The notes under the pieces were generated by a model. The model was given only the letters and a program-made list of their open reading frames with translations, had not been told where the DNA came from and searched no databases. A stretch of DNA of 64,000 nucleotides. Source: Microgenomates group bacterium Gr01-1014_16 (GTDB taxonomy: Bacteria; Patescibacteriota; Microgenomatia; CAZETR01; Amesbacteraceae). The stretch spans positions 8,309-72,308 of the forward strand of contig VMGA01000002.1 in assembly GCA_007376345.1 (NCBI GenBank). Direction: 5' to 3'. Positions 39,170-46,755 of the stretch are shown in pieces. The position numbers and the translations under genes were made by a program. Position 1 is the stretch's first letter; each line of letters opens with the position of its first letter.

Positions 39170-39170
<1 letters not shown>
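38736..39170 (+). CDS. Hypothetical membrane-anchored protein
   Basis: A 144-aa ORF with an N-terminal TM segment (LLFGGAIAVVISGAVVGFIL). No recognisable motif. Confidence 0.35.
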
Positions 39171-39839
<669 letters not shown>

Positions 39840-39847
<8 letters not shown>

Positions 39848-40718
39848 CCATTTTACAACCGCCGCCAATCGTATCCGCCGTTCACCCTACCAAACCCTGG
39901 CCGCCGTTTCTATTATGACCATGACTCTGTTTCTGGCATGCGCCTTCTTTTTGATCGCCGCCGGCTCTCAAGCCGTCCTCAAATATTTCGAGACCCGCCC
40001 CCAGGTCAACGCCTTCTTTGCCACCGATTTTACCCCTTCCGCCAGCCAGGTAGAAATCATCAAGTCTGATCTCGCCGCCACAGGCACGACCGATTCAATC
40101 ACATACATCTCCAAAGAAGACGCTCTGACCATTTACAAGGAGCTCAACAAAAACGACCCCCTGCTTTTAGAAGCTGTCACCGCCCAGATGCTCCCCGCGT
40201 CCATCGAAGTCACCGCTGTTAACCCTTCGGATCTCAAGCCGTTGGCCGACCGGCTCAAAGAAGTGGAGGGCATTTCTGACGTCCGCTATGCCGAAGATGT
40301 GGTGGGTCAACTGTCCAAGTGGACCGCTTCAGTTCGGGCTATCGGAATTGCCCTCGTCGGAGCCCACGTTTTCATTACCTTTACAATTATTATGCTCATC
40401 ATTGGGGTCAAAGTAGCCAATCGTCGCGAAGAAATCTCTCTTCTGCAACTAGTTGGCGCCACACCCGGCTATGTCGCTGCTCCGTTTATCTGGGAAGGGC
40501 TTCTTTATGGTTTGTCCGGGGCCTTTATTGCCTGGGGGGTTTCCTATCTGGTCCTGCTTTATTCCACCGGGTTTTTGATCGGATTTTTGACCGGAGTCCC
40601 CATTCTCCCCGTCCCTGTCATATTTATGCTCGAAGTTCTGGCAGGTACAATCGCTTTGGGAGCGTTAGTTGGCGGCTTGGGGGGATTTTTAGCCGTCCGC
40701 CGCTACCTCAAAGCATGA
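39840..40718 (+). CDS. ftsX: Cell division permease FtsX
   Basis: An N-terminal TM helix, an extracytoplasmic domain and three C-terminal TMs in the FtsX-like arrangement. It overlaps ftsE by 8 nt. Confidence 0.85.
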
Positions 40719-41812
40719 AGAAAAAACTTTTACTCCTCCTCGTTTACACTTTTACACTTTTACACACTTACGCTTTAGTGTCCGCAGACACGTTGTCCGA
40801 CAAACAAAGTCAGATCGATGAATTAGAATCAAAGGTTGCTTCACTTCAATCCCAAGCCAAAACCCTGGCCGGTCAAATCGCCTATTACGACGGCCAGATC
40901 GCTCTGGCCAACCTCAAAATTTCCCAAAGTGAAGATTTGATAACCAGCATTTCTACCAAAATCCGCCTGTTAGAACATTCTCTCCAGACCCGTGGGCAAA
41001 TTTTAGAAAGTCAAGTCAGGGAAACTTACAAACAAGGCCACCAGGATCTTTTGTCCTTATTTTTCTCCTCCCCCAATTTTTCCGCCGCCATCAATCGTTT
41101 CAAATATCTCCAGGTTGTCCAGGACCACAACCGCAAATTTCTCCACGATACCCAGGTCGTCCAAAGCAACTATTCTTCCCAAAAAGATCTCCTAGAGCAA
41201 TCCCGCGTCCGTCTGGAAGCCCAGAAAAAGTCCCTGGCCCTTATCCGCGCCGACCGGGACAATTTACTCACCCAGACCAAAAACGACGAAGCCGTTTACC
41301 AGAAACAACTAGAGCAAGCCCGCCTAGAATATGAAGCTATCCAAAAAGCGCTTATTGCTGGAAAAAAAGAGGGTCCAGTTAAGAAAGGCGATCCGATTGC
41401 GCTAGTTGGTAATTCAGGATATTGGGCACCTGATCCACGACAGGGTTGCTCTACTGGTAAACACTTACATTTTGAAGTCCGGGTGAACAACGATTGGATC
41501 AACGCCGAAACTTACGTCAAATCCATGACTGACAAATGGGGTTTAAATATCGGTTCTGGCAACTGGGATTGGCCCCTCCAGAGCCCAATCGAGATTACTC
41601 AACGCTACGGCAAAACCAATTACTCTTACGTGTATAAATATAGTGGGGGGATTCATACCGGTATAGATATGGTTTCTAATCAAGACGTAATCTATGCCGT
41701 AGCCGACGGAACTCTATATTCTTATACTGGCAAATGTGGTCCGGCCGATCTGAACATCAAATACATCGACCACGGCTCCAATCTCAAAACCTTCTACCTG
41801 CATATCCAATAA
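40715..41812 (+). CDS. EnvC-like coiled-coil protein with a peptidase M23 (LytM) domain whose conserved segments appear in permuted order
   Basis: ATGA overlap with ftsX. It has a signal peptide and about 200 aa of coiled coil. The segment VKKGDPIALVGNSGYWAPDPRQGCSTGKHLHFEV (an HxH block, normally C-terminal) precedes WPLQSPIEITQRYG...GGIHTGIDM...IDHGSNLKTFYLHI (the HxxxD block, normally N-terminal). Confidence 0.7.
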   Translation: MKKKLLLLLVYTFTLLHTYALVSADTLSDKQSQIDELESKVASLQSQAKTLAGQIAYYDGQIALANLKISQSEDLITSISTKIRLLEHSLQTRGQILESQVRETYKQGHQDLLSLFFSSPNFSAAINRFKYLQVVQDHNRKFLHDTQVVQSNYSSQKDLLEQSRVRLEAQKKSLALIRADRDNLLTQTKNDEAVYQKQLEQARLEYEAIQKALIAGKKEGPVKKGDPIALVGNSGYWAPDPRQGCSTGKHLHFEVRVNNDWINAETYVKSMTDKWGLNIGSGNWDWPLQSPIEITQRYGKTNYSYVYKYSGGIHTGIDMVSNQDVIYAVADGTLYSYTGKCGPADLNIKYIDHGSNLKTFYLHIQ

Positions 41813-41875: not shown

Positions 41876-42688
41876 GTGTGGTATATTCAGTTTATGATGT
41901 GGTGGAGCCTGATTCTCCTTTTTTTCCTCTCCACCTTCCCCGCTCTTGCCGTCACGATCACCCTCTCCAATGTTCCCTCTTCAATTTCTACAGACCCGTT
42001 TACTCTAAACGTTGATATTTCCGGCCCGAATCCCGGCACAAACTACTTACGCGTAGATCTTTTTAAGGATGGGACAAGTAACTATTTTGGTGAAACTAAC
42101 AATGGCTCAGTTTATTATGGCGGATCTGATGGCCTGCAATACTTTCCGGTCACAATTAACGCCGAAGGAACAGCTTCTGCCCAGCTCACAGCCAGAATAG
42201 GCAATCCTTCTCACACGGATTATCCTGGATCGGGTCAATATAAATTGAAAATCCGACGTTATACCTCGGCTGACAGTAACTCCTCGTCCAATTCGAATGA
42301 TGTTCAAATTACCTTCGACTGGCCTACTCCTACCCCTACCTCCACTCCCCAGCCAACGAGTCCCCCTGCTCCGACCAATACACCCGCCCCCACAACTACC
42401 CCCAAGCTCTCCTCCACCCCCAAGCCGTCAGCCACACCCACGCCGAAACCAACTTCTCCGCCTATTACAGTTACTGTTACTCTTACAACTCCGCAGGTTT
42501 TGGCCGAAGCCACCGAATTCTTCACCAACTCCTCCCCGACCCCAATTCCTGTTCCAGAATCAATAACCGATAACCGAACACCGAACACCGAACACCAATC
42601 TCCCCCCTGGCCGGCCTTTCTCCTTATAGGCCTGGGCGCAGGTGGCCTGGCCGCCTCCGCCTACCTCTTTTTCCGCTCTCGGGGCTAG
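41876..42688 (+). CDS. Cell-surface protein with a signal peptide, a Pro/Thr-rich linker and a C-terminal TM plus basic tail
   Basis: An N-terminal hydrophobic signal, a PTPTPTSTPQPTSPPAPTNTPAPTTTP linker, and a C-terminal LLIGLGAGGLAASAYLFFRSRG. There is a CCGAACA x3 microsatellite at 42571-42591. Confidence 0.4.
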   Translation: MWYIQFMMWWSLILLFFLSTFPALAVTITLSNVPSSISTDPFTLNVDISGPNPGTNYLRVDLFKDGTSNYFGETNNGSVYYGGSDGLQYFPVTINAEGTASAQLTARIGNPSHTDYPGSGQYKLKIRRYTSADSNSSSNSNDVQITFDWPTPTPTSTPQPTSPPAPTNTPAPTTTPKLSSTPKPSATPTPKPTSPPITVTVTLTTPQVLAEATEFFTNSSPTPIPVPESITDNRTPNTEHQSPPWPAFLLIGLGAGGLAASAYLFFRSRG

Positions 42689-42753: not shown

Positions 42754-45700
42754 ATGGCTCAACCAACCGTCATTTTGCCCCGCCACCGACGGACTATGTT
42801 GGGTGCGGGCGTCTCTCATAATGGCCGGGAGTATATCACCCATTCCACCCTTCCCCACCACCTCTCTGCCCATATTACTCTAGTCCTCTGGCAGAAAATA
42901 TTTCTCCTCTTACTGTTACTGTTACTGCTTACAGGTTTATTCTTTTATCCCTGGGCCACCGCCATCGGATTCATAGCTGTTTTGACCGCCGTCTACTTCG
43001 CCGACGCCGTATTTAACTTCATTTTGATCTTCAAATCCCTCCACTTCCCCCCCGAAATCACCTTCTCGGATATTGAACATCGAACATTGAACATTGGACA
43101 TTTACCCACATATTCTATCTTATGTCCCCTCTACCGCGAAGCCCGCGTCCTTCCCCAGTTCGTCGAGGCCATTTCCGCTCTCGACTGGCCCAAAGCCAAG
43201 CTGGACGTCCTGCTTCTCCTGGAGGAGGATGACACAACCACAATCGAGGTCGCCCATAGCCTTAATCTGCCCTCATATTTCCGGACAATCATCGTTCCGG
43301 TTTCACAACCCAAAACCAAACCCAAAGCCTGCAATTATGGCTTGAGCTACGTCAAAGGTGAATATGTGGTCGTTTACGACGCCGAGGACCGCCCCGAACC
43401 CGACCAGCTCAAAAAGGCCTATCTGGCCTTCCAAAAAGTTCCGGCTTCGGTCACCTGTCTTCAATCCAAGCTCAACTACTACAACCCCCGCCACAATCTG
43501 CTCACCCGCCTCTTCACCGCCGAATATTCTCTCTGGTTCGACGTAGTTTTGCCCGGCCTTCAGTCGATCAACACCACCCTCCCCCTGGGCGGTACCTCCA
43601 ACCACTTCCGCACCAAAATCCTAAAAAAGCTTCATGGCTGGGACGCCTTCAACGTCACCGAGGACTGCGATCTGGGTTCCCGTCTTTTCAAAGCCGGCTA
43701 CACCACGGCTATTATCGACTCCACCACTTACGAAGAAGCCAACAGTCAGTTGGGTAACTGGATCAGGCAGCGCTCGCGTTGGATCAAGGGCTATCTCCAG
43801 ACCTTTCTCGTCCACAACCGCCACCCCCTGAAGTTTTTGCGCGACCACGGTTGGCATGCCCTCATTTTCCAGCTGATAGTCGGCGGCAAGATCGCCTTTA
43901 TGCTCATCAACCCCTTCCTCTGGCTCATGACCTTCGCCTACTTCACTCTTTATAGCTTCGTCGGCCCGGCCATCGAATCTCTTTATCCCGCTCCCGTCTT
44001 CTACATGGCCGCCTTCTCTGCTGTTTTCGGTAACTTTCTCTATCTCTACTACTATATGATCGGCTGCGCCAAACGCGGCCATTGGGATCTCATCAAATAT
44101 GTCTTCTTTATTCCCCTCTACTGGCTTTTTATCAGCATCGCCGGCTTCAAAGCCCTGGCCCAGTTGATCCTGCGCCCCCACTACTGGGAAAAAACCCACC
44201 ACGGCTTCCATCTTGACCGGGCCGAATCTTCCTTCCTGCGCTCCCAAATCATCTCCCGTTTCGGTTGGGTTCGTCCTTTAGCCGGGCATCGCCTCACCGG
44301 CGCCACGCTTTTAGTCGCCTCGGCCGCAGCCGCCAATTTCTTCAATTTTCTCTACAATGCCTATCTGGGCCGGGTTTTGTCCGCATCCGATTTCGGTTTA
44401 GTAGCCCTCATGGGCAGCCTGATATTTATTGTCAATCTTCCGATCGGCGCCCTCTCCGGAACTGTTTCCTATCGGGCTTCCTATCTCATTGGCAAGTTCG
44501 GTAGCACAGCCCAAGCCTTTTGGTCACTCATCCGCCGTCGCTCAATCATGGTCGCTATTTTGTGTGTCCTTGTCTGGCTGGTTCTCTCGCCCTGGCTGGC
44601 CGGTTTTTTCCGCTCCCCCGACATCCTGCCTTTTTGGCTCTTCGCTCCCATTTGGACCATCGCCTTCACTGCTGCCGTCGACCGGGGTTTCTTAACCGCC
44701 AACCTCCGCTTTTTCACTTTGGCGGTGGTCATTCTGGGTGAGGCCTTGTCCAAATTTGGCCTGGCCGTGTTATTTGTTCATCTGGGCTATCCCCAGCTGG
44801 TCTACGCCGCCATTCCTTTGTCCATGGTTTTACCGTTGGGCATTGGCTGGTGGGTAGCTCGCAGAACCACCTCACCCGTCGTTTTGGACCCCTCCCATAT
44901 TACCTATTTCCCCAGGCGTTATTTTGCCACCTCGATTCTTATGGGTCTATCCGCTCTTGGGTTTTTGAGCTTGGACGTGATTTTAGCCAAGCGCTTTTTG
45001 GATCCCGTCTCCGCCGGCAACTACGCCCTGCTTTCCCTGGTTGGCAAAATGATCTATTTCTTCGGCAAGCTGGTTTCCCAATTTACTATCCCCCTGGTCA
45101 GCCGGGCCGAAGGCGAGGGCGCCGATTCCCAAAAAGTCTTTCTGCCCATCTTTCTCCTGTCCGTTTTTGCTACTACTGCCGGCTTTGTAGCCTTAGGCCC
45201 ACTGGGCCATCTCACCGTCCCCCTCTTACTGGGCGCCAAGACTATCCCGATATTGCCATATCTCACTCTCTATTCCCTGGCCCTGGCTCTCTATACCATG
45301 ACGACTACCGTCATTGATTACCACCAGGCCCGCCGCCACTATCTTTTTCCCGTCACCGGTTTCTTTTTAGCCATTGCCCAAGTCGTCGCCCTGTCCTTTT
45401 TTCACGACCACCTATCCATGTTGGTCAACGTCATCTTTGCCTTGAGCCTGTTTTATTTCCTGCTCATTACCGGCCTGCATTTCACCTATGACGCAATAAT
45501 AATTATTTTTCACAACCTCCACGATTTACTGGACCTTTTTTTCTTGAGGCTCAACGGCCGCCGCCCCCTGCCCTCCGACAAACTGCGCATTTTAGCTTTC
45601 AACTGGCGGGATACCAAACACGTCTGGGCCGGTGGGGCGGAAGTATATTTACACGAAGTAGCCAAGCGCTGGGTCACGGCCGGACACACAGTCACTCTTT

Positions 45701-46755
45701 TTTGCGGCAATGACGGCCATGATCCCAGAAATGAAATGATGGACGGAGTCAAAATAATCCGCCGCGGTGGCCTGTTCACCGTCTATATATGGGCGTTTTT
45801 ATACTACGTCCTCAAATTCCGCGGCCGCTTCGACGTTATTATCGATTCCGAAAACGGCATTCCCTTTTTCACACCACTTTTCACTAGGCTTCCGGTCTTT
45901 CTTTTAATACATCACGTCCACCAGGATCTCTTTCGTTCAAATCTTTATTTCCCCATGGACAAAATAGCCATGCTTTTAGAAGGCAAACTTATGCCCCTGG
46001 TCTACCGGAATTCCCGAATCATCACCGTTTCCGATTCCTCCCGCAAAGATATTTTGTCTCTAGGCTTTTTCAAATCCGACAATATTACAGTCGTCAATCC
46101 CGGTATCGATCCTTCTATCTTTTACACCTCTCCCAAAACCCGCTATCCTTCGTTTGTCTATCTCGGCCGCATCCGCGCCCAGAAAAATATCGACGTGGCC
46201 ATCCGGGCTTTTGCCTCTGTTGTCAAAAAATATCCCAAAGCCCGGTTCTCCATTGCTGGCTGGGGTGACAAATTAGACGAATTAGCCAAATTAGCCAAAT
46301 CACTCAGACTGGCCAAATCGGTCAAATTCCTAGGCAAAGTCAGCGATGCCGAACGGGTCAAACTTTTAGGAAAATCCTGGGCCATGCTCCAGCCCAGCTC
46401 TTTTGAAGGGTGGGGGATAACGGTTATCGAGGCCAATGCCTGCGGGACTCCGGTAATAGCTTCGAACGTCCCCGGCCTGCGCGACTCCGTCCTCCACGAT
46501 GAATCCGGTATTTTAGTTTCTCTCAAGAACGAATTTGAATTGGCCGAATGTATGAAATTGTTAATTTCCCTTCCGGACTACCGCTCCCGCCTATCCCAAA
46601 ACGCCCTCGCCTGGTCCACCAACTTCAACTGGGACGTCAAATCAGCCGAATTCATCCGCGCCGTCTCAAATCGTAACCAGAAACAGGAGTTAACTATCCC
46701 GCTCGCCAAACCCGGTTTGGCTTATTCGTATGAATCAACTGATCAACATTCTTAA
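42754..46755 (+). CDS. 1333-aa fusion protein: processive GT2-type glycosyltransferase, Wzx/MOP-flippase-like polytopic domain, GT4 (group 1) glycosyltransferase
   Basis: The GT2 part carries the D,D motif VVYDAEDRP, the Q(R/Q)xRW motif NWIRQRSRWIKG, and flanking TM helices. The middle has about 12 TM helices, with GNYALLSLVGKMIYFFGKLVSQFTIPLVSR in the Polysacc_synt/Wzx style. The C-terminus is GT4, with EGWGITVIEANACGTPVIAS (the EX7E region). The reading frame is uninterrupted. Confidence 0.75.
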   Translation: MAQPTVILPRHRRTMLGAGVSHNGREYITHSTLPHHLSAHITLVLWQKIFLLLLLLLLLTGLFFYPWATAIGFIAVLTAVYFADAVFNFILIFKSLHFPPEITFSDIEHRTLNIGHLPTYSILCPLYREARVLPQFVEAISALDWPKAKLDVLLLLEEDDTTTIEVAHSLNLPSYFRTIIVPVSQPKTKPKACNYGLSYVKGEYVVVYDAEDRPEPDQLKKAYLAFQKVPASVTCLQSKLNYYNPRHNLLTRLFTAEYSLWFDVVLPGLQSINTTLPLGGTSNHFRTKILKKLHGWDAFNVTEDCDLGSRLFKAGYTTAIIDSTTYEEANSQLGNWIRQRSRWIKGYLQTFLVHNRHPLKFLRDHGWHALIFQLIVGGKIAFMLINPFLWLMTFAYFTLYSFVGPAIESLYPAPVFYMAAFSAVFGNFLYLYYYMIGCAKRGHWDLIKYVFFIPLYWLFISIAGFKALAQLILRPHYWEKTHHGFHLDRAESSFLRSQIISRFGWVRPLAGHRLTGATLLVASAAAANFFNFLYNAYLGRVLSASDFGLVALMGSLIFIVNLPIGALSGTVSYRASYLIGKFGSTAQAFWSLIRRRSIMVAILCVLVWLVLSPWLAGFFRSPDILPFWLFAPIWTIAFTAAVDRGFLTANLRFFTLAVVILGEALSKFGLAVLFVHLGYPQLVYAAIPLSMVLPLGIGWWVARRTTSPVVLDPSHITYFPRRYFATSILMGLSALGFLSLDVILAKRFLDPVSAGNYALLSLVGKMIYFFGKLVSQFTIPLVSRAEGEGADSQKVFLPIFLLSVFATTAGFVALGPLGHLTVPLLLGAKTIPILPYLTLYSLALALYTMTTTVIDYHQARRHYLFPVTGFFLAIAQVVALSFFHDHLSMLVNVIFALSLFYFLLITGLHFTYDAIIIIFHNLHDLLDLFFLRLNGRRPLPSDKLRILAFNWRDTKHVWAGGAEVYLHEVAKRWVTAGHTVTLFCGNDGHDPRNEMMDGVKIIRRGGLFTVYIWAFLYYVLKFRGRFDVIIDSENGIPFFTPLFTRLPVFLLIHHVHQDLFRSNLYFPMDKIAMLLEGKLMPLVYRNSRIITVSDSSRKDILSLGFFKSDNITVVNPGIDPSIFYTSPKTRYPSFVYLGRIRAQKNIDVAIRAFASVVKKYPKARFSIAGWGDKLDELAKLAKSLRLAKSVKFLGKVSDAERVKLLGKSWAMLQPSSFEGWGITVIEANACGTPVIASNVPGLRDSVLHDESGILVSLKNEFELAECMKLLISLPDYRSRLSQNALAWSTNFNWDVKSAEFIRAVSNRNQKQELTIPLAKPGLAYSYESTDQHS

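What the first reader, a model, noticed from the sequence alone, without database searches (positions are those of the whole stretch)
41375..41812. EnvC-like FtsEX partner has an M23/LytM domain with its conserved blocks in swapped order (apparent circular permutation)
In canonical M23 domains the order is P..G.iT..fG, then HxxxD, then GyGn.v.i.H.nG..T.Y.HL, then G..V.kGq.IG.vG.TG.stGpHLHFE. In this protein the HLHFE-containing block (aa 221-268, VKKGDPIALVGNSGYWAPDPRQGCSTGKHLHFEVRVNNDW) comes first. It is followed 20 aa later by WPLQSPIEITQRYG...GGIHTGIDM...KYIDHGSNLKTFYLHI, and the protein then ends. Both metal-ligand blocks are retained (HxxxD and HxH). This is a reordered domain rather than a degenerate one, which is unusual for the FtsEX-associated activator.
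Basis: partly seen in the sequence, partly recalled or inferred. Interest (0 to 1): 0.65.

Follow-up and report, generated by a model that had tools for sequence, protein, structure and literature searches.

The report
Circularly permuted M23 peptidase beside FtsEX
The cell-wall-cutting enzyme encoded next to the division ABC transporter FtsEX in this ultra-small (CPR/Patescibacteria) bacterium has a zinc-peptidase domain whose two halves are in swapped order; hundreds of relatives share this rearrangement, and we found no paper that describes it.

Summary
Window 40715-41812 (+) encodes a 365-aa secreted coiled-coil protein. It follows ftsE and ftsX directly, and its ATG overlaps the ftsX stop codon. 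In its C-terminal M23/LytM domain the HxH block (H250, H252) comes before the HxxxD block (H314, D318). The chain ends two residues after the third catalytic histidine (H363).

A profile of this domain matched 21 of 21 canonical M23 domains as two pieces in swapped order. It matched head-to-tail doubled copies of the same domains as one contiguous piece with about twice the score. That is the standard sequence signature of a circular permutation.

It is not an assembly artefact. The same order occurs in 119 of 120 close homologues and in at least 98 of 148 representative clusters (50% identity). All five catalytic or zinc residues are kept in at least 98% of 242 domains. ftsE-ftsX synteny holds in every coiled-coil member examined.

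Named members are all CPR lineages: Microgenomates, Berkelbacteria and Saccharimonadales. Non-CPR relatives have the canonical order.

The best reading is an FtsEX-controlled, catalytically active M23 endopeptidase with a permuted fold, not an EnvC-type inactive activator. The 3D equivalence to LytM is inferred, because permutation-aware superposition was not available. It is a new variant of a known kind.

The parts
39170..39847 (+). ftsE, the ABC ATPase (225 aa)
   Evidence: PF00005 ABC_tran, E=3.6e-30. It overlaps the ftsX start by 8 bp.
39840..40718 (+). ftsX, the permease with an extracellular domain (292 aa)
   Evidence: PF18075 FtsX_ECD at aa 55-148 (E=7e-15) and PF02687 FtsX at aa 175-291. 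Its TGA stop overlaps the ATG of the next gene as ATGA.
40715..41812 (+). Whole gene: a secreted coiled-coil protein with a circularly permuted M23 domain (365 aa plus stop)
   Evidence: An identical protein is deposited from 'Microgenomates group bacterium Gr01-1014_16' as 'exported protein of unknown function'.
40715..40789 (+). N-terminal signal peptide or anchor (aa 1-25, MKKKLLLLLVYTFTLLHTYALVSAD)
   Evidence: Read directly from the sequence: a basic n-region, a hydrophobic core and a VSA motif. Cleavage is inferred and was not run through a predictor.
40793..41359 (+). Coiled-coil region (aa 27-215): long helices 27-108 and 119-188 plus a last helix 192-215 that runs straight into the M23 domain
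   Evidence: AF2 model with pLDDT 86.4 and helices H27-46, H51-108, H119-188 and H192-215. PF24568 CC_PcsB covers aa 84-147. The full-length model's Foldseek hits with probability 0.98 or higher include 8tzl_E (EnvC in the FtsEX complex), 8idc_E (RipC) and 4cgk (PcsB).
41363..41506 (+). M23 'C-half' placed first (aa 217-264): GPVKKGDPIALVGNSG...CSTGKHLHFEVRVNNDWINA
   Evidence: It matches Pfam M23 profile positions 48-95. It matches residues about 100-145 of canonical domains.
41462..41470 (+). HxH motif (H250-L-H252)
   Evidence: Invariant in A1 and A3. H250 is kept in 238 of 242 permuted domains and H252 in 240 of 242.
41507..41569 (+). Linker joining the old C-terminus to the old N-terminus (aa 265-285, ETYVKSMTDKWGLNIGSGNWD)
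   Evidence: Its length varies across the family: the H252-to-W286 spacing is 21-62 residues, median 34. It is only about 5 residues in Berkelbacteria...DYLGGVLSWP....
41570..41809 (+). M23 'N-half' placed last (aa 286-365): WPLQSPIEITQRYG...GGIHTGIDM...KYIDHGSNLKTFYLHIQ
   Evidence: It aligns to 3slu_A residues 241-295. It matches residues about 3-96 of canonical domains.
41654..41668 (+). HxxxD motif (H314-T-G-I-D318)
   Evidence: H314 is kept in 241 of 242 permuted domains and D318 in 242 of 242.
41801..41803 (+). Third catalytic histidine (H363, the LytM His260 equivalent), two residues from the C-terminus
   Evidence: Kept in 238 of 242 domains. The chain ends exactly 2 aa after it in 176 of 237 proteins and within 4 aa in 222 of 237. 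The role of LytM His260 is taken from PMC9662197.
41447..41449 (+). Cys245, one of a covarying cysteine pair
   Evidence: It co-occurs with Cys341: 189 domains have both, 48 have neither and 5 are mixed.
41735..41737 (+). Cys341, the partner of Cys245 (probable disulfide between the two halves)
   Evidence: The disulfide itself is inferred.

Best explanation
The gene encodes the extracellular partner of the FtsEX division ABC transporter of a CPR (Microgenomates) bacterium. Its parts run in this order: a signal peptide, an antiparallel coiled-coil hairpin of the EnvC/PcsB/RipC type that docks on the FtsX extracellular domain, and a short last helix (aa 192-215). That helix is fused without a linker to a zinc-dependent M23 (lysostaphin/LytM-type) peptidoglycan endopeptidase domain.

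The M23 domain is a true circular permutant. The canonical C-terminal half, which carries the HxH motif, comes first. A linker joins the old C-terminus to the old N-terminus. The canonical N-terminal half follows, carrying HxxxD and the third catalytic histidine. The chain stops two residues after that histidine.

Both halves are proposed to fold into one M23-like domain with a complete active site. The enzyme would therefore cut peptidoglycan cross-links itself, as PcsB, CwlO and RipC do in monoderms, rather than activate amidases as E. coli EnvC does. FtsE ATP hydrolysis would gate it through the coiled coil.

The permutation most likely arose once, by tandem duplication of an M23 domain followed by loss of the outer halves. 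This would have happened within or at the base of CPR, after which the domain spread as a module.

What is shown and what is inferred:
- Shown: the permuted order, its conservation, conservation of the catalytic residues, ftsEX synteny, and the coiled-coil fold resemblance.
- Inferred: the single-domain 3D assembly, catalytic activity, FtsX binding, gating by FtsEX, and the duplication route.
For: - **Swapped order.** It is seen with Pfam and with PDB sequence alignments. In the single-versus-doubled test, all 21 canonical domains matched as two swapped pieces when single and as one contiguous match across the junction when doubled.
- **Conservation.** 119 of 120 homologues are permuted, as are 98 of 148 50%-identity representatives, plus further fragments. 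H250, H252, H314, D318 and H363 are invariant in a 62-sequence alignment with only 33% mean column identity. Each is kept in 238-242 of 242 domains.
- **Fixed cut point.** 176 of 237 proteins end exactly 2 aa after the catalytic histidine.
- **Evidence for a single domain.** The Cys245/Cys341 pair, one cysteine in each half, covaries 189 both / 48 neither / 5 mixed. The AF2 domain-only model is one compact unit with pLDDT 88.3 and pTM 0.85.
- **FtsEX link.** ftsE and ftsX lie directly upstream of the gene in the window, with an ATGA overlap. The same is true in L001-L002, L003, L005, L006 and L009, and ftsX plus a truncated, unidentified ORF lie upstream in L004. Together these span about 23-58% identity to the window protein.
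- **Coiled-coil fold.** The full-length model matches EnvC in the FtsEX complex (8tzl_E), RipC in FtsEX (8idc_E) and PcsB (4cgk). Pfam CC_PcsB also matches.
- **Natural tandem M23 proteins exist.** P0205, P0212 and P0220 carry two M23 domains, and the query matches across their C1-to-N2 junction in one stretch.
Against: - **No M23 fold match.** No order-independent structural superposition could be done. Foldseek aligns in sequence order, and with the domain-only model it found no M23 chain in the PDB (best E=0.22). This is expected for a permutant, but it also means the M23-like 3D fold is not demonstrated.
- **No experiments.** Activity, zinc binding and FtsX binding are untested.
- **Mixed pattern within CPR.** Some CPR lineages carry canonical versions: Magasanikbacteria L013, and Berkelbacteria P0498.
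Confidence: 0.8

Rival explanations
1. Assembly or local rearrangement artefact: the two halves were swapped by mis-assembly of a canonical M23 gene.
For: None was found. The idea rests only on the unusual order in a single metagenome-assembled genome.
Against: The same order and the same C-terminal end occur in 119 of 120 close homologues and about 100 representative clusters. These come from independent NCBI, JGI, ENA and Logan assemblies, including contigs of 0.5-1 Mb. The reading frame is uninterrupted.
Confidence: 0.01
2. The two segments are degenerate remnants of two M23 domains that do not form a catalytic site. The protein would then be a non-enzymatic regulator, an EnvC-like amidase activator or a scaffold.
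For: The best-known FtsEX partner with an M23 domain, E. coli EnvC, is catalytically dead (PMC7668044; PMC9662197). Foldseek did not recover the M23 fold.
Against: All five catalytic or zinc residues are kept in at least 98% of 242 domains despite about 25-35% overall identity. Inactive LytM factors lose these residues. The protein scores far below the EnvC equivalog cutoff, 22.9 bits against 270. AF2 gives one compact domain with pTM 0.85.
Confidence: 0.06
3. The halves complement in trans. The active M23 fold would be formed between two protomers as a domain-swapped dimer, not within one chain.
For: Each chain carries one C-half and one N-half, so a reciprocal swap is topologically possible. 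PcsB crystallised as a dimer in which the catalytic domain is held by the other protomer's coiled coil (4cgk was hit; the dimer detail is from general knowledge).
Against: The linker can be as short as about 5 residues and still joins motifs that are the canonical C- and N-termini, which favours intramolecular closure. The monomeric AF2 model is confident. The Cys pair covariation fits either model.
Confidence: 0.07
4. The enzyme is not used mainly for the cell's own division. It would be a weapon or attachment tool against the host's cell wall, in keeping with the epibiotic CPR lifestyle, and ftsEX adjacency would be incidental.
For: The same permuted module ends giant, probably surface-exposed proteins: P0133 (1256 aa), P0262 (2174 aa) and P0274 (2492 aa, named as an endonuclease/exonuclease/phosphatase-family hydrolase by its source). 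Many M23 enzymes are bacteriocins (PMC9662197).
Against: For the coiled-coil form, adjacency to ftsX was seen in every locus checked across very divergent members, and ftsE was identified in all of them except L004. Start and stop codons overlap where that was checked. The coiled coil matches those of known FtsEX partners.
Confidence: 0.06

Closest known systems
Canonical coiled-coil plus active M23 proteins of Bacillota, Actinomycetota and others (annotated 'peptidoglycan DD-metalloendopeptidase family protein', e.g. P0186, P0210, P0494, L010, L031)
   Same: Length (about 380-440 aa), an N-terminal signal, a long coiled coil, a C-terminal M23 domain with intact HxxxD / H / HxH, and recognisable sequence similarity in both halves.
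   Different: Their M23 blocks are in canonical order, with HxxxD about 80 aa before HxH, and the protein ends ...NPxxYL. In the window protein the order is rotated and the chain ends at the catalytic histidine.
E. coli / V. cholerae EnvC (FtsEX-EnvC-AmiA/B; PDB 6tpi, 8tzl)
   Same: Linkage to ftsEX, a coiled-coil hairpin followed by a helix leading into a LytM/M23-type domain, and the best full-length fold hit (PMC7668044).
   Different: EnvC's LytM domain has canonical order and lacks the catalytic residues; it activates amidases. Here all the catalytic residues are present and the domain is permuted. The NCBIfam EnvC equivalog scores 22.9 bits against a 270-bit cutoff.
PcsB (S. pneumoniae), CwlO (B. 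subtilis) and RipC (M. tuberculosis): FtsEX-controlled direct hydrolases of monoderms
   Same: The predicted mode of action is the same: a coiled coil bound by FtsX and a C-terminal catalytic domain that cuts peptidoglycan itself. Pfam CC_PcsB matches, and Foldseek hits 8idc_E and 4cgk.
   Different: Their catalytic domains are CHAP or NlpC/P60 cysteine peptidases, not M23 metallopeptidases.
LytM / lysostaphin (MEROPS M23B; PDB 4ZYB, 2B44)
   Same: The catalytic residue set is the same. H210/D214/H293 as zinc ligands and H260/H291 as catalytic residues correspond to H314/D318/H252 and H363/H250. The motif definitions come from PMC9662197.
   Different: The linear order of the halves differs, and there is no occluding N-terminal pro-region. 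The structural equivalence was not tested.
Circularly permuted NlpC/P60 families (YaeF/poxvirus G6R and LRAT-like; Anantharaman & Aravind 2003, cited in PMC6403190)
   Same: They are a precedent for a peptidoglycan-hydrolase superfamily in which the catalytic residues are swapped in sequence by circular permutation.
   Different: The fold and the catalytic chemistry are unrelated. No equivalent has been reported for M23 in the literature searched.

Membership tests
Peptidase M23 / LytM domain (Pfam PF01551, MEROPS M23B) | Profile score above the curated threshold | tested here: met
   47.1 bits against a 28.7-bit cutoff, but reached only as two separate stretches. In relatives the precomputed hit is often only 'weak' or 'faint'.
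Peptidase M23 / LytM domain (Pfam PF01551, MEROPS M23B) | H(x)nD zinc-binding motif | tested here: met
   H314-TGI-D318. It is invariant in A1 and A3 and kept in 241-242 of 242 domains.
Peptidase M23 / LytM domain (Pfam PF01551, MEROPS M23B) | HxH motif | tested here: met
   H250-L-H252. It is invariant and kept in 238-240 of 242 domains.
Peptidase M23 / LytM domain (Pfam PF01551, MEROPS M23B) | Additional catalytic histidine located about 30 aa before HxH (LytM His260) | tested here: not met
   The residue is present and conserved (H363, 238 of 242) and aligns to the canonical Y-x-H-L block. However, it lies 113 aa after the first histidine of HxH (H250), at the C-terminus, not 30 aa before it.
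Peptidase M23 / LytM domain (Pfam PF01551, MEROPS M23B) | Canonical linear order of the conserved blocks (N-half with HxxxD, then C-half with HxH) | tested here: not met
   The order is swapped in every test. This makes the protein a permuted variant, not a standard member.
Peptidase M23 / LytM domain (Pfam PF01551, MEROPS M23B) | M23 three-dimensional fold with the five residues around one zinc site | tested here: inconclusive
FtsEX-coupled coiled-coil cell-wall hydrolases/activators (EnvC, PcsB, CwlO, RipC class) | Gene linked to ftsE-ftsX | tested here: met
   In the window the gene overlaps the ftsX stop. ftsE and ftsX lie directly upstream of it in L001-L003, L005, L006 and L009. In L004 ftsX lies upstream and the ORF before it, cut by the locus end, has no Pfam assignment.
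FtsEX-coupled coiled-coil cell-wall hydrolases/activators (EnvC, PcsB, CwlO, RipC class) | Signal peptide, antiparallel coiled-coil hairpin and C-terminal effector domain | tested here: met
   The AF2 helices are 27-108, 119-188 and 192-215. PF24568 CC_PcsB matches. Foldseek hits 8tzl_E, 8idc_E and 4cgk.
FtsEX-coupled coiled-coil cell-wall hydrolases/activators (EnvC, PcsB, CwlO, RipC class) | Physical binding of the coiled coil to the FtsX extracellular domain, and ATP-dependent activation | not testable with these tools
   This needs a complex prediction or biochemistry. FtsX does carry the ECD (PF18075).
EnvC sensu stricto (NCBIfam NF008644, murein hydrolase activator) | Equivalog score at or above the cutoff | tested here: not met
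   22.9 bits against a 270-bit cutoff, and the match covers the coiled-coil part only (aa 27-203).
EnvC sensu stricto (NCBIfam NF008644, murein hydrolase activator) | Degenerate LytM domain lacking catalytic residues | tested here: not met
   All five residues are present and conserved. EnvC lacks them (PMC7668044).

The most novel reading that the evidence does not exclude
The permutation is adaptive rather than neutral. It moves both chain ends of the M23 domain to the active-site face: the chain stops 2 residues after the catalytic histidine, and the regulatory helix 192-215 enters at the adjoining strand. The FtsEX-driven coiled coil would then be rigidly wired to the catalytic centre itself. 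ATP-powered movement of that helix would assemble or disassemble, or uncover, the active site directly. That would be a gating mechanism distinct from the detachable 'restraining arm' of EnvC, and it would be characteristic of the Candidate Phyla Radiation.
Probability: 0.2. Interest if true: 0.8.

Novelty: new variant of a known kind. Interest (0 to 1): 0.6.

Why it matters
M23/LytM domains are among the most studied peptidoglycan hydrolase folds, and they are used as enzybiotic scaffolds. The 2022 family review has no occurrence of 'permut', and five full-text searches found no report of a permuted M23.

A naturally permuted and apparently active M23 would matter in four ways:
- It shows that the fold tolerates new termini right next to a catalytic histidine, which is useful for protein engineering and for studying fold evolution.
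- It defines the likely division hydrolase of a large part of the CPR/Patescibacteria, whose cell division is almost unstudied.
- It offers a natural experiment on how FtsEX transmits force to its hydrolase, because the attachment point of the coiled coil has moved.
- It explains why profile-based annotation sees these proteins only weakly, as split or 'faint' Pfam hits, and why sequence-order-dependent structure searches miss them.

Tried and rejected
- **Foldseek, domain-only AF2 model against the PDB.** It found no M23 hit; the best E was 0.22, to phage capsid proteins. This says nothing about the fold because the aligner works in sequence order.
- **Foldseek against viral structures.** It gave full-length matches at probability 1.0 and TM about 0.47 to cyanophage proteins: S-TIM5 'virion structural protein and packaging' H6WFX6 and an unnamed entry. 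A third match, the P60 internal virion protein L0CQF1, had probability 0.91 and TM 0.45. I followed up P60 gp33. It has no HxxxD or HxH motif, no HMM match, and only a sub-threshold Phage_lysozyme2 hit elsewhere in the protein. I rejected it as an M23 relative.
- **tblastn of the domain against 50,697 phage genomes.** It found only canonical C-half matches in Staphylococcus phage tape-measure proteins.
- **Organism names for the divergent subfamily.** A search seeded with the divergent member P0192 returned no useful organism names.
- **Literature leads.** The 'circular permutation' plus M23 hits turned out to concern HABAS/barrel-sandwich domains and NlpC/P60, not M23.
- **Assembly artefact.** I considered this and rejected it (see rival explanations).
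Full report
**1. What is at the coordinates**

The interval 41375-41812 is the 3' part of an ORF. Its biologically sensible start is the ATG at 40715 (MKKKLLLL...), which gives a 365-aa protein ending at the stop codon 41810-41812.

The gene lies directly downstream of ftsE (39170-39847, ABC_tran) and ftsX (39840-40718, FtsX_ECD plus FtsX permease). The ftsX stop and the ATG overlap as ATGA.

**2. Is the order really swapped?**

Yes. Three independent tests agree.

- Pfam PF01551 is significant at 47.1 bits (cutoff 28.7), but only as two stretches. The best stretch places aa 205-263 on profile positions 48-95 of 96, the C-terminal half of the model.
- phmmer against PDB sequences aligns aa 309-364 to residues 241-295 of the M23 protein 3slu_A. 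It aligns aa 232-264 to residues 315-338 of the same chain. 6muk_A and 5j1l_A show the same reversal.
- I built an HMM of the domain from 27 family members and searched 21 canonical M23 domains, once as they are and once duplicated head to tail. All 21 single copies matched as two pieces in swapped order: HMM positions about 52-147 on canonical residues 3-96, and HMM positions about 5-52 on canonical residues 100-145. All 21 doubled copies matched as one contiguous piece across the junction with roughly the summed score; for P0210 this was 37.4 and 33.8 bits against 80.7 bits.

This is the classical sequence test for circular permutation. The cut lies immediately after the Y-x-H-L block, the LytM His260 equivalent. 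A variable linker (aa 265-285) joins the old termini.

**3. Artefact or biology?**

Biology. The identical protein is deposited from 'Microgenomates group bacterium Gr01-1014_16'. 119 of the 120 best homologues (43-100% identity, many different assemblies, contigs up to 1 Mb) have the same order and the same C-terminal end.

An exhaustive HMMER scan of 1.84 billion representative proteins, using the domain alone, found 826 hits with E of 1e-3 or better. 148 of the 150 listed hits were new representative clusters. Of these, 98 are full permuted domains and about 15 more are permuted fragments or variants. Only 31 are canonical M23 domains, and those match more weakly and in two pieces.

Across 242 permuted domains the five residues that define an active M23 enzyme are almost invariant: H250 in 238, H252 in 240, H314 in 241, D318 in 242 and H363 in 238. 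They are among only ten invariant columns of a 62-sequence alignment with 33% mean column identity. The residue roles come from PMC9662197: zinc ligands in H(x)nD and HxH, and a further catalytic histidine equivalent to LytM His260.

The cut point is fixed. The chain ends exactly two residues after the catalytic histidine in 176 of 237 proteins and within four residues in 222 of 237.

A cysteine pair, one cysteine in each half (C245 and C341), covaries: 189 domains have both, 48 have neither and 5 are mixed. This is what a disulfide between the two halves would give.

**4. Structure**

AlphaFold2 on a 61-sequence alignment gives a confident full-length model with pLDDT 86.4. It has long helices at 27-108 and 119-188 and a last helix at 192-215. 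That helix runs with only one intervening residue into the first beta-strand of the domain (217-222).

Foldseek of this model against the PDB returns EnvC in the V. cholerae FtsE/FtsX/EnvC complex (8tzl_E) as its best hit. The other hits with probability 0.98 or higher include RipC in the M. tuberculosis FtsEX complex (8idc_E) and PcsB (4cgk). Pfam also detects the PcsB-type coiled coil.

A domain-only model (aa 212-365) is one compact unit with pLDDT 88.3 and pTM 0.85. Its strands correspond to the canonical M23 strands in rotated order.

**5. Context and distribution**

ftsE and ftsX were found directly upstream of the permuted M23 gene in every locus examined but one. That gene order holds across members sharing only about 23-58% identity with the window protein:

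| Locus | Member |
|---|---|
| L001, L002 | P0091 |
| L003 | P0116 |
| L004 | P0192 (ftsX identified; the truncated ORF before it is unassigned) |
| L005 | P0273 |
| L006 | P0279 |
| L009 | Berkelbacteria chromosome |

A class-I release-factor gene (PCRF/RF-1 domains) often lies a few genes upstream, in L001-L003 and L006. In the window it is further away.

Organism names attached to permuted members are all CPR/Patescibacteria: Amesbacteria, Gottesmanbacteria, 'Microgenomates bacterium 39_6', Yanofskybacteria, Patescibacteria UBA10118, Berkelbacteria and Saccharimonadales.

Coiled-coil M23 proteins from Bacillota, Actinomycetota, Pseudomonadota and Gemmatimonadota recovered in the same searches all have the canonical order. 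So do a Magasanikbacteria protein that is not next to ftsEX (L013) and a second Berkelbacteria protein (P0498).

The permuted module also ends giant proteins of 1256, 2174 and 2492 aa, so it behaves as a mobile domain.

**6. Mechanism proposed**

The protein is secreted or anchored by its N-terminal signal. Its coiled-coil hairpin sits on the FtsX extracellular domain, as in EnvC, PcsB and RipC. The two M23 halves close into one zinc site and cleave peptidoglycan peptide cross-links directly.

FtsE ATPase cycles relieve an autoinhibited state, by analogy with the mechanism set out for EnvC and predicted there for the direct hydrolases of monoderms (PMC7668044).

The permutation puts the coiled-coil attachment point and the free C-terminus next to the catalytic histidine. 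The regulatory helix may therefore act on the active site more directly than EnvC's restraining arm does. This last point is speculation; I put its probability at about 0.2.

The origin by tandem duplication and loss of the outer halves is inferred. Natural tandem-M23 proteins exist, and the query aligns in one stretch across their C1-to-N2 junction (P0205, P0212, P0220). They are not close relatives, though.

**7. Comparison with what is known, and novelty**

The protein works like the FtsEX-PcsB, FtsEX-CwlO and FtsEX-RipC class and resembles EnvC in architecture. It is not EnvC: the NCBIfam equivalog scores 22.9 bits against a 270-bit cutoff, and the catalytic residues are present.

It meets the chemical definition of M23, with both motifs and an above-threshold Pfam score. 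It fails the canonical block order and the canonical position of the third histidine. It is therefore a permuted variant of M23, not a standard member.

Full-text searches combining permutation terms with M23, LytM, EnvC, lysostaphin, Peptidase_M23, FtsEX, CPR and Patescibacteria found no description of a permuted M23. The hits concerned NlpC/P60, HABAS domains or unrelated matters, and the M23 family review never uses the word. The library is limited to open-access papers and preprints, so prior description elsewhere cannot be excluded. Databases label these proteins simply 'Peptidase M23', 'CwlO-like' or 'EnvC'.

**8. Verdict**

It is a new variant of a known kind. Interest is moderate to high (0.6). 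It is a clean, deeply conserved, lineage-wide circular permutation of a classic enzyme fold at a mechanistically interesting position, but it lies within a well-understood functional framework and has no experimental data yet.

Noticed in passing
window 41447-41449 (Cys245) and 41735-41737 (Cys341): Two cysteines, one in each permuted half, covary across 242 family members: 189 have both, 48 have neither and 5 are mixed. This suggests a clade-specific disulfide that staples the halves together. I do not recall such a pair in canonical M23 domains, but that was not checked here.
   Followed up: partly
P0133 (1256 aa), P0262 (2174 aa), P0184/P0274 (894/2492 aa); not in the window: The same permuted M23 module, with the same cut point, sits at or near the C-terminus of giant proteins. 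P0274 is named as an endonuclease/exonuclease/phosphatase-family hydrolase by its source. The permuted domain therefore moves as a module beyond the FtsEX partner.
   Followed up: partly
P0305, P0480, P0490 (homologues): Some homologues match over about half to two-thirds of the query. Their only precomputed Pfam domains are cysteine-peptidase families (PF13529 Peptidase_C39_2; P0480 also PF03412), not M23. This hints that the effector domain on the same (presumably coiled-coil) scaffold has been exchanged.
   Followed up: no
L087:22777-25779 (Synechococcus phage P60 gp33) and Cyanophage S-TIM5 H6WFX6: The permuted-domain model aligns over its full length, in sequence order, to a domain of large cyanophage virion proteins. 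For S-TIM5 H6WFX6 the Foldseek probability is 1.0 and TM 0.48; for P60 L0CQF1 it is 0.91 and TM 0.45. P60 gp33 has no HxxxD or HxH motif and no profile match. This may be a non-catalytic domain of the same topology, or a coincidental beta-fold match.
   Followed up: partly
window 42754-46755 (+): A 1333-aa ORF fuses a GT2 glycosyltransferase (aa about 118-425), a long stretch without Pfam hits that reads as hydrophobic (probably membrane-spanning; no topology prediction was run), and a GT4/GT1 glycosyltransferase (aa about 960-1285). It is an unusually large single-chain glycosyltransferase fusion, two genes downstream of the hydrolase.
   Followed up: no
window 41876-42688 (+): The gene immediately downstream encodes a 270-aa protein with an N-terminal hydrophobic segment, a Pro/Thr-rich low-complexity stretch and a C-terminal hydrophobic tail, and it has no Pfam hit. 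In relatives this slot holds an LTD (lamin-tail) domain protein (L003, L006), followed in L001-L003 by VanZ and then CAP-domain genes. In L006 a CAP-domain gene lies further downstream.
   Followed up: no
window 41423-41446 (aa 237-244, WAPDPRQG): There is an 8-residue insertion in the loop just before Cys245 and the HxH motif. Most orthologues have GYPxCSTG there. Among the sequences inspected, only a few close relatives (e.g. P0009) share the insertion, and P0116 has a similar one.
   Followed up: no
L009 versus P0498 (Berkelbacteria); L013 (Magasanikbacteria): Both a permuted and a canonical coiled-coil M23 protein are found in proteins or loci labelled Berkelbacteria, though not shown to come from one genome. 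The permuted one is ftsEX-linked. The Magasanikbacteria canonical copy lies next to a 497-aa ORF that reads like a glutamyl-tRNA synthetase (not verified), and no ftsEX genes are among its neighbouring ORFs. This pair could date the permutation event.
   Followed up: partly
L001, L003, L006: Precomputed Pfam annotation flags the M23 hit in these family members only as 'weak' or 'faint', because the domain is split. Automated annotation could therefore under-call this family.
   Followed up: no
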